In this document: in pieces, positions 30,001 through 33,000 of the stretch
How positions within the stretch are numbered: the first letter of the stretch is position 1
Layout of the letters: each line of letters starts with the position of its first letter
From: Candidatus Parvarchaeota archaeon
Lineage (GTDB): Archaea; Nanobdellota; Nanobdellia; WJKC01
Assembly: GCA_030615175.1 (NCBI GenBank)
Contig: JAUWZX010000001.1
Coordinates: 567,042-631,041 of the forward strand
Direction: 5' to 3'
Length of the DNA: 64,000 bases
Made by a program: the position numbers

Positions 30001-33000
30001 GTTTAACTTATTCGTAAGCGAGTTCCCAATTTACGCTTTATCATATGAAATTAATCCATTGCTTACTGGATTCCTGCTCTTAACTTCATTAATAGTGCTG
30101 CTTAATTATGTAAAAATACTTTTGCCGGCTTATTATAATTCAAGGATTAAGGAATCCAGTGCTGCCAGGAAGTTCATTACTTACGCTTTAAGCGCTACCT
30201 GCCTGTTATTAGGCGTTATCCCTCAATTAGAATTAACCTTATTCGAGGCTTTATCATGAAATCAGGTAAGCAGGAGTTATACGTTGGAGGCGAGAAGCCT
30301 GATTTAAAGGAGCAGTCATTCAGCATTGTAATCTACTTAAAGCAGTTAATAAAGGACCTGGTGAGGCGAAGATGAACTCATTATATACTCAAGGGGGTTG
30401 CTCAAGGGGGCTTGCCCCCGAGAAGGACCTGGTGAGGCGAAGATGATTAGGAAGTCGCCGTGGGTTACTTTTTATGATATTGGAGGATGCAACGGGTGCA
30501 CGCTTGAATGGAATGCCGCTATAAGCCCTGTCTACGACCTTGAACGCTTCGGCATTAAATTAGTTGACAGCCCTAAGCATGCTGACATAGTAATAATTGC
30601 CGGCACAATAACCACTCAGTCACTTGAAAGCCTTAGGAGAATATTAAAGAATACTCCTAAGCCGAGAAAAATAATTGCTCTTGGCTCGTGCGCTATTTCA
30701 GGAGGATTATTCAAGCAGTCATATAATTCAAAAGGTCCTCTAGACCATTTAGTGAATGTTGACATGTACATTCCTGGCTGCCCTCCAAAGCCTGAAGCAA
30801 TCATTCACGGCTTGCTGAAAGCACTCGGGAGGAAGGAATGAAAGAGTTTTCAGAAAGAGTAAAGAAGCATAAAGGAGAGAGATTAATTTCAATAGTCTGC
30901 ACTGACATGCCTAATAGTTTTGAATTAAAATACTTCTTTGATGATAAAGGCGTTGTGTCAGTAGATGAGTTCAGGATTCCTAAGAAGAGACCTGTCATTC
31001 ATTCAATTATTAAATCATTCCCTGTTGCATCCTTTTACGAAAGAGAGATATTTGAAGGCTTTGGAGTTAAGTTCAGGGGTCATGAATTAAAGAAATTATT
31101 CCTTGCTGATAATTTTGAAACAAAATACCCTATGCGGAGGTATGATTAAATGCATAATCTTAAATTCCCTATTGGACCGCAGCATCCGGGAGTTAAGGAG
31201 CCTATTTACTTGAAAGTGTTTGCTGAAGGCGACACTGTTACAAAGGCTGAGTTCAGAGGAGGGTACGTTCACAGGGGGATGGAGAAATTAATGGAAGGGC
31301 AGGAAACTATTACTGCAATGCATAGTGCTGAAAAGATTTGCGGTATTTGCAGTTATGCTCATAATTCATGCCTTACTAATGCGATTGAAGGCATTCTAAG
31401 GATTAACCCTTCATTAAGCGTTAAGATGACTCGCAACGTTATCGGCGAACTTGAGAGGATTCATTCTCACTTAATGTGGCTTGGATTCTTATTCCATGAT
31501 GCTGGATTCGACACTTTATTCATGTATTACTGGCGTGAGAGGGAGAAAGTATTGGAATTATTTGAAAAGATTACCGGGCAGAGAGTTCACCACGCTATTA
31601 ACTTCATTGGCACGACAAAGATTAATATCAGCGAGTCTGACAAGTTATGGATTAATAAGACTCTTAGAGGCATTAAAGAAAAAGTGAATGATTATTATAA
31701 GGATTTAATTAATAATTCAGTGATTAAGGAAAGATTCAGTGGAGTGGGATTCATCAGTAAGGATTACGCATCACTCTATAATACTGTTGGCCCGACTGCT
31801 CGCGCGTCAGGCATTCAATGGGATACAAGGCTTACTGGTTATTCAGGATTTAATGAATTAAGTTTTGAAGCAATAACTAGCAGGGATTGTGATGTTTACG
31901 CCAGGACTATTGTCAGAATTAAAGAGATTACTGAATCAATTAATATTATTGAACAAGCATTGGAGAAGATTACTAAGCCAGCGCCTGCGTGGAAGGAAAC
32001 ATGGATTAAGAGGGGTGAGGGTTACGCGCGCGTTGAAGCTCCTCGCGGAGAATTATTTTATTACATTTCTGTTAAGAAGAATCATTTGCTGCGCGTCAAG
32101 GTTAAGACGCCTACTTTTAATAATTTCCCAGTACTGCTTAAAATACTTGAAGGCGAGAAGTTGTCTAATATTCCATTAATTGTTGCAAGCATTGACCCGT
32201 GCATTAGTTGCATGGAGCGCTTACTATTAGTTAAGGATGGGAGGAGTAATATTCTTTCAAAGCATGAATTCCTGAGGAGGTATTGCGGTCATGGGCATTA
32301 AGTTAGTGTTAACAGCTCTTCCAGTTGCAGTATTACTTGAAGGCGTCAGGCGCAAGTTAATGGCTCGCTTTCAGGGCAGGAAGGGTCCTCCAGTCATCCA
32401 GCCTTTCTATGATTTAATCAAGTTATTCAATAAAGAAAGGACTGAGGCAAGCGAGAGCAGGAACTTGATTTTCTATGCAGCGCCAGTAATTAGTCTTGCA
32501 ATAATGATTTTTAATTATTTAATACTCTTCGGAGTGCTTGGTTTTAATTATGATTTCGTGTTATTCATTTACTTATTCACTACTGCAGGCGTGATATTAA
32601 TTATTGGTTCATTGTCAAGCAAGTCGCCATTGTCATTCGTTGGCGGCGTGAGAGAGATTCTTTACTTAATTGCTTATGAAGTTATTTTCATCTTCACTGC
32701 CCTGAATCTTATTTCAAAGTCAGGTGAGTTAATGCTATCAAATTATAATAATGCAGGATTATTTATTGCTCCTGTTTCATCAGTGCTATTATTAATTGCT
32801 GGTTTCGCTATTCTGAAAGTAACTCCTTTTGACTCGCCTGCAGCGAGTGCTGAGATTAGTTCATCAATGACTGCTGAGTATAGCGGCAAGTTATTATTCG
32901 CTTATGAGTTAGCTGACTTCTTTAAGAATGGCTTGTTCTACTTTACTGCTGCAATATTATTGTTCGGCAGGAATACTTATTCATTAATCTTTATTCCTGC

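What a model noticed while it worked through the whole genome (the two positions that open the first line are those of the whole stretch)
30352..30446. Second, genome-specific hairpin insertion element (GGGGGUU-N-CUCAAGGGGGCUUGCCCCCUGAG) with 12-41-nt target duplications [...]
Seven copies of a 25-60-nt G+C-rich module, a perfect hairpin CTCAAGGGGGC-TT-GCCCCC(T)GAG preceded by (A)GGGGGTT and an A/T-rich tail, each sit between two direct copies of the flanking sequence; the hairpin end abuts the second repeat. Sites: start of the [NiFe]-hydrogenase small-subunit gene (24-nt repeat holding its ATG; span given), 3' end of rpoH g00122 (C1:96307-96453), tRNA-Asn/topoVI-A spacer (C5:294769-294887, 35 nt), SecF/SecD junction (C1:35170-35263, 26 nt, reverse strand), 5' end of tRNA-Trp (C5:241433-241527, 12 nt, reverse), ValRS/aIF5A convergent ends (C5:106238-106349, 21 nt), upstream of g00462 (C5:110093-110196, ~40 nt, diverged). 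With the CAACCC module it shows that short [...]
Evidence so far: Direct-repeat scan; hairpin scan with flank alignment: 5 of 7 regex hits have flanking repeat scores 27-66, the two without are unrelated hairpins in g00420 and tRNA-His; sequences and gene context of all seven. Three copies are identical over 27 nt but for one base; not found (<=2 mismatches) in 20 relatives including the same-genus genome; reversed-pattern control 0.
(Added by a program. Inside this text positions count along the whole contig: contig position 567,042 is position 1 of the stretch shown here. "Call 12" and the like, gene names such as g00115 and contig names such as C1 are that model's own, and its searches are not shown. 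The text may have been shortened before it was handed on; [...] marks where a part breaks off. The agent that wrote the report below was given it as the finding of a first reader that could run no searches.)

Follow-up and report, generated by a model that had tools for sequence, protein, structure and literature searches.

The report
Triplex-capped mini-insertions that duplicate gene ends
A 47-base, gene-less piece of DNA sits between two copies of the start of a hydrogenase gene in a tiny archaeon and is missing in a near-identical strain; it is one of about fifty such inserts in four related genomes that are predicted to fold into a three-stranded DNA knot and likely enter at gene ends as single-stranded DNA, by an enzyme not yet found.

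Summary
Real and mobile. At window 30352-30446 a 47-nt insert lies between exact 24-nt repeats. A 99%-identical strain contig has one repeat and no insert; two other runs carry it. All seven listed sites hold, plus two more. It is not genome-specific: family relatives carry variants, giving 53 insertions in four genomes with 12-77-nt duplications. What is conserved is shape. On the G-rich strand a third strand covaries with a bulged hairpin as a purine-motif triplex, a DNA-only fold. Polarity never varies: repeat, variable tail, third strand, hairpin, repeat. The tail-side edge lies within 6 nt of a gene end in 31 of 53 cases (hairpin side 3 of 53). Where the copies differ, 22 of 37 changes are synonymous. 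Best reading (0.45): a single strand carrying its own gene-end allele pairs at the homologous locus, and its hairpin end is joined 12-77 nt back. No mover was found. The motif also flanks relaxase/Rep genes of ssDNA-phase replicons. This scan noted hairpin-triplex inserts before on other DPANN DNA (e1-943111, e1-9581758); eight literature searches found no description.

The parts
30352..30375 (+). First (tail-side) copy of the 24-nt repeat: leader, SD-like GGTGAGG and ATGA of the hydrogenase small-subunit gene
   Evidence: a single copy in the empty allele of run X2
30376..30392 (+). 17-nt A/T-rich tail, unique to this copy; no longer match elsewhere in the genome than shuffled tails give
30393..30399 (+). 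Predicted third strand (GGGGGTT), mirror partner of the purine arm (G.G and T.A triads)
   Evidence: covariation across the family; the fold itself is inferred
30400..30410 (+). Turn (GCTC, whose CTC pairs with the terminal GAG) and purine arm AAGGGGG with bulged A
30411..30422 (+). CTTG loop and pyrimidine arm CCCCC-GAG; its last base is the fixed end of the element and abuts the second repeat
30423..30446 (+). Second (hairpin-side) copy of the 24-nt repeat, supplying SD and ATG of the intact gene
30372..30446 (+). 24-codon upstream ORF created by the insertion: starts at the first ATG, reads through the insert, and its TGA overlaps the second ATG (ATGA)
   Evidence: translation not shown
30443..30841 (+). 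Host gene: NuoB-like small subunit of a membrane-bound [NiFe]-hydrogenase operon

Best explanation
This is a gene-less mobile mini-element, present in some strains and absent in another, whose G-rich strand is predicted to fold into a DNA triplex and which likely inserts as single-stranded DNA by pairing at a matching gene end and having its hairpin end joined to the host strand a short way back. Shown: presence/absence polymorphism; one polarity (repeat - tail - third strand - bulged hairpin - repeat); triad covariation; duplications of 12-77 nt; tail-side edge at gene ends; excess of synonymous differences between copies; repeated hits at the same conserved loci. Inferred: the donor strand reads 5'-[gene-end allele][donor flank = tail][triplex module]-3'; host recombinase pairs the gene-end part; homology stops where the gene stops, leaving tail and module as a 3' flap; the triplex protects and marks that 3' end; an enzyme acting in trans (an HUH relaxase/Rep of a visiting plasmid or ssDNA virus is my first candidate, host flap nuclease plus ligase the second) cuts the displaced host strand 12-77 nt back and joins the flap to it, leaving the host's old gene end stranded as the second copy. 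Selection then keeps insertions that leave genes intact, for instance through ATGA translational coupling as at this site.
For: Empty and filled alleles in one species. 48 of 1447 repeat pairs carry a terminal triplex against 0 of 637 shuffled; all 20 apparent opposite-polarity hits are the same elements read on the other strand. Triad covariation in modules collected with no triad rule: at the second position 23 of 31 spacer types form G.G (12), T.A (10) or A.A (1), permutation mean 13.0, 0 of 20000 permutations reach it; opposite the first A the third strand has T in 20 and A in 6 of 31, which suits the purine motif on the G-rich strand and not a pyrimidine motif on the other strand. 42 of 42 hairpins with three or more outer pairs have a 1-2-nt bulge. 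Fixed end: 7 of 9 copies of the CCCCTTCG type end exactly there, 2 within 1 nt. Tail-side edge within 6 nt of a gene end in 31 of 53, hairpin-side in 3 of 53; closer in 46 of 53, sign test p=4e-8; edge at nucleotide 1 of tRNA-Val, -Pro, -Ser and of tRNA-Trp in G000 and, within 2 nt, in G002. Copies differ by 22 synonymous and 15 non-synonymous changes in 16 events; expected 26% if the dead copy simply decays (p=1e-5), 41% if the live copy also drifts silently (p=0.016). Tails (0-140 nt, about 70% A+T) have no donor in their own genome: longest match 13.7 against 12.6 for shuffles. Same loci hit by different modules: rpoH/rpoB junction (G000, G001; empty in G003), start of g00462 (G000, G001, G002; empty in G003), tRNA-Trp 5' end (G000, G002; empty in G001). 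The same motif lies 50-77 nt upstream of HUH relaxase genes and beside Rep genes of microviruses, an inovirus and a CRESS-type contig.
Against: No enzyme: G000 has no Mob_Pre relaxase, Y1 transposase, RVT_1, Cas1 or tyrosine integrase; it is 87% complete. 32 of 53 events, this site among them, have identical copies, and the strain contig shows no extra divergence beside the site (3 and 4 differences in 528 nt on either side), so a foreign allele is not shown here. The model spreads an element between alleles but does not by itself explain how a new locus is first seeded. The synonymous excess could equally come from later allele replacement of the live copy; two of the 16 frames scored are probably spurious; the test against the 41% model is modest. 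Gene-end clustering is partly a survival filter in a gene-dense genome, and my gene starts are crude ORF calls. Some tails share short motifs (TATATTTT, TTGATGCTGGG), so they are partly element sequence. The 31 spacer types come from a few related subfamilies, so the permutation p overstates. No viral copy showed a clean duplication, and none of this exact subfamily was found in viral contigs. Holder et al. found no stable triplex in double-stranded DNA or in vivo for the E. coli motif.
Confidence: 0.45

Rival explanations
1. Target-primed synthesis with template switching (retroposon-like). A nick at an exposed gene edge gives a 3'-OH; a reverse transcriptase supplied in trans, or the host primase/PolX, adds an untemplated tail, jumps onto the C-rich strand of the module (RNA or DNA), copies it until the new strand folds into the triplex and stops; a second nick 12-77 nt away makes a true target duplication.
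For: One fixed and one variable end with variable duplications is the usual anatomy of target-primed insertions (own knowledge). Unique A/T-rich tails; 32 of 53 identical copies; edges at tRNA nucleotide 1 and at ATG could be RNA 5' ends; modules in tRNA introns are oriented with the C-rich or A-rich strand as RNA. Primase is present in 3 of 4 genomes; archaeal primase has terminal-transfer, extension and end-joining activity (PMC12019639 abstract; PMC3333859 listing). It explains seeding of new loci.
Against: No RVT_1 in any of four genomes and no convincing RT motif; PolX found in G000 and G001 only among the DNA held. Does not predict allele-like synonymous differences. tRNA 3'-end events copy the genomic T-run rather than CCA. 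No poly(A) rule: tails are A-rich in some copies and T-rich in others.
Confidence: 0.3
2. An ordinary non-autonomous transposon (MITE, REP/REPIN or IS200/IS605 derivative) moved by a transposase in trans.
For: Small, hairpin-bearing, dispersed, polymorphic. G001 has an IS200-type Y1 transposase. YPAL/RU-2 of Yersinia makes 3-26-bp duplications (PMC2229807 passages).
Against: No terminal inverted repeats, one end is variable, duplications run from 12 to 77 nt, no target consensus is visible. Y1 is missing from 3 of 4 genomes and its own hairpins in G001 are unlike the module. IS200/IS605 insertions make no duplication (own knowledge).
Confidence: 0.12
3. Retro-copies of a poly(A)-tailed RNA made by a DGR-type reverse transcriptase that miscopies adenines (my first reading).
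For: Three G000 tails are 17 nt long and differ mainly where a consensus has A.
Against: Tails in relatives are 0-140 nt and often T-rich on that strand; adenines in the core stay conserved; no adenine-restricted pattern between repeat copies; no RT; the shared TAT/TTT codons are also what an open uORF selects.
Confidence: 0.03
4. Assembly artefact or local replication slippage at a strong hairpin.
For: G-runs and hairpins are error-prone to sequence (own knowledge).
Against: Filled allele in contigs of two other runs and empty allele in a third; same module at unrelated loci; controls empty; diverged copies differ in a codon-aware way.
Confidence: 0.02

Closest known systems
BoxC / PIT / TM-ECO intrastrand triplex repeats (Holder et al. 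2015, PMC4666352; passages and first part of the Discussion read)
   Same: Short intergenic G/C-rich repeats able to form a purine-motif intrastrand triplex; loci vary between strains; no transposase nearby.
   Different: Ours is class I by the paper's definition (third strand 5'), carries a conserved bulge and a variable tail, and is flanked by 12-77-nt duplications; the word 'duplication' does not occur in that paper's main text, and it reports no link to phages or plasmids, whereas this motif is common in ssDNA-phase replicons.
Insertion with long target duplication of restriction-modification units (Furuta et al. 2010, PMC2853133, passages; Nobusato et al. 2000 seen only as a reference)
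   Same: Long, variable direct repeats, often overlapping a gene end, with no integrase or transposase.
   Different: Those inserts are kilobase gene cassettes with a nuclease; ours are 28-170 nt, code for nothing, and have a fixed structured end and fixed polarity.
Homology-facilitated illegitimate recombination (PMC3240628, abstract)
   Same: Homologous recombination at one end and a non-homologous joint at the other is the step I infer.
   Different: Here the non-homologous joint falls precisely at a hairpin base and yields a duplication; the abstract describes no structured end and no duplication.
YPAL/RU-2 of Yersinia (as summarised in PMC2229807, passages)
   Same: Non-autonomous palindromic repeat without TA ends, variable 3-26-bp duplications, filled and empty sites.
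   Different: 168 bp with internal inverted repeats; no triplex, tail or gene-end edge described; ours is a third of the size with longer duplications.
oriT/origin-region hairpins of Mob_Pre mobilisable elements, inoviruses and microviruses
   Same: Same GGGGT(GT)-NN-(AG)AGGGG-loop-CCCCT shape, including the CTTG loop and bulged G in the relaxase-linked copies.
   Different: There it is a resident cis-signal with no flanking duplication; its role there was not found in print.

Membership tests
Class I intrastrand triplex motif (Holder et al. 2015) | Order 5' reverse-Hoogsteen strand, purine tract, pyrimidine tract with G.G-C, T.A-T or A.A-T triads | tested here: met
Class I intrastrand triplex motif (Holder et al. 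2015) | Triplex actually forms (CD, NMR, footprinting) | not testable with these tools
   ViennaRNA gives only two-stranded folds
MITE | Terminal inverted repeats | tested here: not met
   one end hairpin, other end variable
MITE | Short fixed-length target duplication | tested here: not met
   12-77 nt, median 24
MITE | Cognate transposase with matching ends | tested here: inconclusive
   only Y1_Tnp searched as a family; DDE families not searched; genomes 85-96% complete
REP/REPIN (RAYT-mobilised) | GTAG or CGTC tag at the palindrome end and a RAYT gene | tested here: not met
   no such tag in the modules; Y1 only in G001, with unrelated hairpins; tag names from the title of PMC3733652
SINE-like retroposon (target-primed reverse transcription) | One fixed end, variable other end, variable-length duplication | tested here: met
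SINE-like retroposon (target-primed reverse transcription) | Poly(A) or simple-repeat tail | tested here: not met
   tails mixed, 0-140 nt
SINE-like retroposon (target-primed reverse transcription) | Partner reverse transcriptase and RNA intermediate | tested here: inconclusive
   no RVT_1 in four genomes; supply in trans not excluded
Insertion with long target duplication (restriction-modification type) | Long variable direct repeats, single copy in the empty allele, no integrase or transposase | tested here: met
Insertion with long target duplication (restriction-modification type) | Insert carries restriction and modification genes | tested here: not met
   inserts 28-170 nt
Casposon / Cas1-made insertion | Cas1-family integrase in the genome; fixed duplication length | tested here: not met
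   no Cas1 in G000; variable lengths
oriT of MOBV relaxases | nic site at the hairpin end recognised by the relaxase | not testable with these tools
   only proximity shown; the review passages read give no sequence

The most novel reading that the evidence does not exclude
A class of selfish DNA defined by a fold rather than a sequence: triplex-capped single strands, descended from the origin signals of ssDNA viruses and mobilisable plasmids, that home to conserved gene ends in DPANN archaea by pairing at one end and structure-guided strand transfer at the other, swap in foreign gene-end alleles as they go, and also seed tRNA introns and translationally coupled leader peptides. It would need no transposase of its own and would give intrastrand DNA triplexes their first clear biological job.
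Probability: 0.3. Interest if true: 0.9.

Novelty: new variant of a known kind. Interest (0 to 1): 0.72.

Why it matters
Intrastrand triplex repeats have been known in bacteria for decades without an assigned function or a way of spreading (PMC4666352, Discussion). Here such a fold marks the fixed end of a demonstrably polymorphic insertion, across many sequence subfamilies, and the same motif sits by relaxase and Rep genes of ssDNA-phase replicons. That gives a 30-nt oligonucleotide to test for folding, nuclease resistance and cleavage by HUH enzymes, and a concrete route by which streamlined archaea with no transposons gain repeats, tRNA introns, new leader peptides and swapped gene ends.

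Tried and rejected
DGR-type A-to-N retrocopying: rejected. Movers not found in G000: RVT_1 (also 0 of 3 relatives), Cas1, Y1 transposase, Mob_Pre (94; 0 of 4), tyrosine integrase; loose motif scans for RT, Y1, GIY-YIG, DUF559 and rolling-circle Rep gave nothing convincing; a conserved 503-aa hit is a TIM-barrel protein. The exact G000 pattern: 2 hits in 185,579 species genomes, one a Rhodobacteraceae hairpin of the same shape; 2 chance hits in metagenomes; 0 in viral contigs. First relatives search with the exact pattern gave 5 non-self hits at two mismatches, one of them (G002) hairpin-like. Outside family f1 the shape is rare: 3 of 297 other class genomes, 8 of 400 phylum genomes, none of 9 loci inspected with a duplication of 12 or more. 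Leading/lagging-strand bias could not be tested: no clear GC-skew replichores on C5. Tail as a diverged copy of the flank beyond the second repeat: no similarity. Rfam: only tRNAs in 10 loci. No promoter or terminator match over the insert with a bacterial-type scan. No RNA holder listed among sequencing runs. Strain data were obtained only for the window; the rpoH and other sites were not seen in reads. The hydrogenase operon was not found in G001-G003 with this query, so the direction at this site (gain versus precise loss in X2) rests on the insert being a dispersed family. G003 was seen only in part (328 of about 800 kb), G001 870 kb, G002 1055 kb. Rows dropped before the 53-event count: 3 of 49 hits (one 206-nt chance pair, two overlapping readings of one locus); 7 hand-verified G000 events were added. 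Not-in-print claim rests on searches of open-access text only; subscription papers and supplements were not seen.

Full report
1. Observation. Window 30352-30375 and 30423-30446 are the same 24 bases, holding a GGTGAGG ribosome-binding motif and the ATG of a NuoB-like hydrogenase small subunit; between them lie 47 bases. The genome is a 1.015-Mb, 5-contig, 87%-complete archaeal assembly; DPANN placement comes from earlier notes and gene content, not from a call. Two more clear copies and one weaker one were found, and a profile finds nothing further of weight.

2. It is a real, polymorphic insertion. Laying four runs on window 26000-40000, a 1056-nt contig of run X2 with 7 other letters joins 30351 to 30423 with 24 letters fitting either side: one repeat, no insert. 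Contigs of X1 and X3 (one study) span the filled allele. No outgroup has the operon, so gain rather than precise loss is inferred from the insert being a dispersed family.

3. It is not genome-specific. A looser pattern finds 5 hits each in same-family genomes G002 and G003 and 1 each in 3 of 297 others; their flanks show duplications of 13-54 nt. The same-genus G001 lacks this sequence type but has sister types. A shape-based scan of G000 and 870, 1055 and 328 kb of G001-G003 gave 49 hits, against 0 of 330 and 0 of 307 shuffled pairs. After dropping 3 and adding 7 hand-checked G000 events there are 53 insertions, duplication 12-77 nt (median 24), insert 28-170 nt. Outside the family the G-type shape is rare: 8 of 400 phylum genomes, none of 9 loci inspected with a duplication.

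4. What is conserved is a fold. On the G-rich strand each module reads third strand, turn, purine arm, short loop, pyrimidine arm. In modules collected with no triad rule, the second mirrored position is G.G in 12, T.A in 10 and A.A in 1 of 31 spacer types (permutation mean 13.0; 0 of 20000 reach 23), although the types stem from a few related subfamilies. Viral copies show the same trend, 9 of 17 against 5.5. This is class I in the scheme of Holder et al. 2015, who state that purine-motif triplexes cannot form in RNA (passages). All 42 hairpins with three or more outer pairs have a 1-2-nt bulge in the purine arm (a few rows are opposite-strand readings or tRNA arms, and allowing a bulge gives the fit extra freedom). 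The CAACCC module of the same genome has the same topology as a pyrimidine-type triplex. Polarity is invariant: repeat, tail, third strand, hairpin, repeat; the 20 apparent exceptions are the same elements read on the other strand. The triad census is circular and is not used.

5. The two ends behave differently. The hairpin end is precise (7 of 9 copies of one type end at the same base). The tail is 0-140 nt, about 70% A+T and has no donor in its own genome, though short motifs recur. The tail-side edge of the duplication lies within 6 nt of a gene end in 31 of 53 events, the hairpin-side edge in 3; it is the closer one in 46 of 53. It falls on tRNA nucleotide 1 for Val, Pro, Ser and Trp; tRNA-Cys, at 48 nt, is an exception. 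Gene density and survival explain part of this, but not the asymmetry or the tRNA cases.

6. The copies differ like alleles. 32 of 53 pairs are identical; 5 could not be framed; in 16 framed events 22 changes are synonymous and 15 not, against 26% (p=1e-5) or 41% (p=0.016) expected; two frames are probably spurious. The same conserved loci are hit in several genomes by different modules, with empty orthologues in others: rpoH/rpoB, g00462 start, tRNA-Trp 5' end, and SecF/SecD empty in G002 and G003. Earlier notes describe foreign-looking gene ends beside hairpin inserts in other archaea (e1-1089511, e1-9592255); these are leads, not support.

7. How the host tolerates it. At this site the first ATG opens a 24-codon frame through the insert whose TGA overlaps the second ATG. 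Among 10 events listed with a duplicated start codon, 6 have such an overlap and 2 stop within 8 nt; a seventh overlap is at C5:206041. ATGA overlaps give tight translational coupling in archaea (PMC6728339, abstract). I read this as a survival filter, untested.

8. Mover. None in G000: RVT_1, Cas1, Y1, Mob_Pre, tyrosine integrase all negative; primase and PolX are present. The motif shape occurs in an estimated 980 IMG/VR stretches: inovirus intergenic regions, next to microvirus, inovirus and CRESS-type Rep genes, and 50-77 nt upstream of HUH relaxases, without clean duplications (4 of 136 scored 14 or more, all tandem repeats). This points to an ssDNA origin signal as ancestor and an HUH enzyme in trans as candidate; both are inference.

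9. Mechanism. Best (0.45): a donor single strand carrying gene-end allele, flank and triplex cap pairs at the homologous gene end; its capped 3' end is joined to the displaced host strand 12-77 nt back. It accounts for the edge position, allele-like differences, unique tails and recurrent loci, but not for first seeding, and no foreign tract is visible at this site. Rival (0.3): target-primed synthesis with template switching by a reverse transcriptase in trans or host primase (PMC12019639, abstract). Transposase-driven MITE/REP (0.12), DGR-type retrocopy (0.03) and artefact (0.02) fail stated tests.

10. Comparison and novelty. It works like insertion with long target duplication (PMC2853133, passages) and homology-facilitated illegitimate recombination (PMC3240628, abstract), folds like BoxC/TM repeats and resembles YPAL in its variable duplications (PMC2229807, passages), but meets the full definition of none. 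Eight searches of open-access text found no description of the combination; subscription papers and supplements were not seen. This scan has noted hairpin-triplex inserts on other DPANN DNA and the CAACCC module in this genome. New here are the empty allele, the family-wide census with controls, the DNA-only triad test, the bulge, the edge asymmetry, the coupling filter and the link to relaxase/Rep-adjacent motifs. Verdict: new variant of a known kind, with a 0.3 chance of a categorically new homing mechanism; interest 0.72.

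Noticed in passing
window 38394-38480: A copy of the CAACCC module with an exact 19-nt duplication; it has the same topology on its T-rich strand (pyrimidine-type triplex). A contig of run X1 skips 38406-38458 with 9 other letters, not a clean empty site.
   Followed up: partly
window 16326-16466 and 21911-22050: Two tRNA-Pro genes with the same 65-nt intron containing the CAACCC module.
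   Followed up: no
window 3655-3750: A 23-nt imperfect direct repeat around a 50-nt spacer at a gene junction with no triplex hit; possibly a decayed insertion.
   Followed up: no
window 27332-29026 (-): Full-length PolX-PHP polymerase; 72% identical orthologue in G001, not found in the G002/G003 DNA held.
   Followed up: partly
window 29609-33440: Membrane-bound [NiFe]-hydrogenase operon; its small subunit was found in only 2 of 20 relatives, none in the same family.
   Followed up: partly
window 34635-37257: Two adjacent long ORFs with GKGGVGKT P-loops that look like ArsA/Get3 ATPases (label from own knowledge).
   Followed up: no
L409, L418, L424, L428, L463 (IMG/VR): The G002/G003-type triplex motif sits 50-77 nt upstream of Mob_Pre relaxase genes, next to a long inverted repeat; role unknown.
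   Followed up: partly
L104, L109, L121, L129, L141, L146 (IMG/VR): Inovirus-like prophages carry the motif in inverted pairs 0.7-1.0 kb apart, in three cases around a DUF3653 gene.
   Followed up: partly
L057 / L071 (G003 C16 end): Nested tandem array at a tRNA-Leu 3' end in which a G-type and a T-type module repeat as one 88-nt unit.
   Followed up: no
G000 C1:110691, L336:1050, L383:3667: The end of one small gene (…MEMEITE-stop) carries a triplex insertion in three genomes, with two module types and duplications of 22, 18 and 31 nt.
   Followed up: partly
L404 (G001 C10): An IS200-type Y1 transposase gene with its own terminal hairpins, the only transposase seen in the four genomes.
   Followed up: partly
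L263, L270, L272 (G001): A sister G/A-rich triplex module forms T-loop introns of tRNA genes in the same-genus genome.
   Followed up: partly
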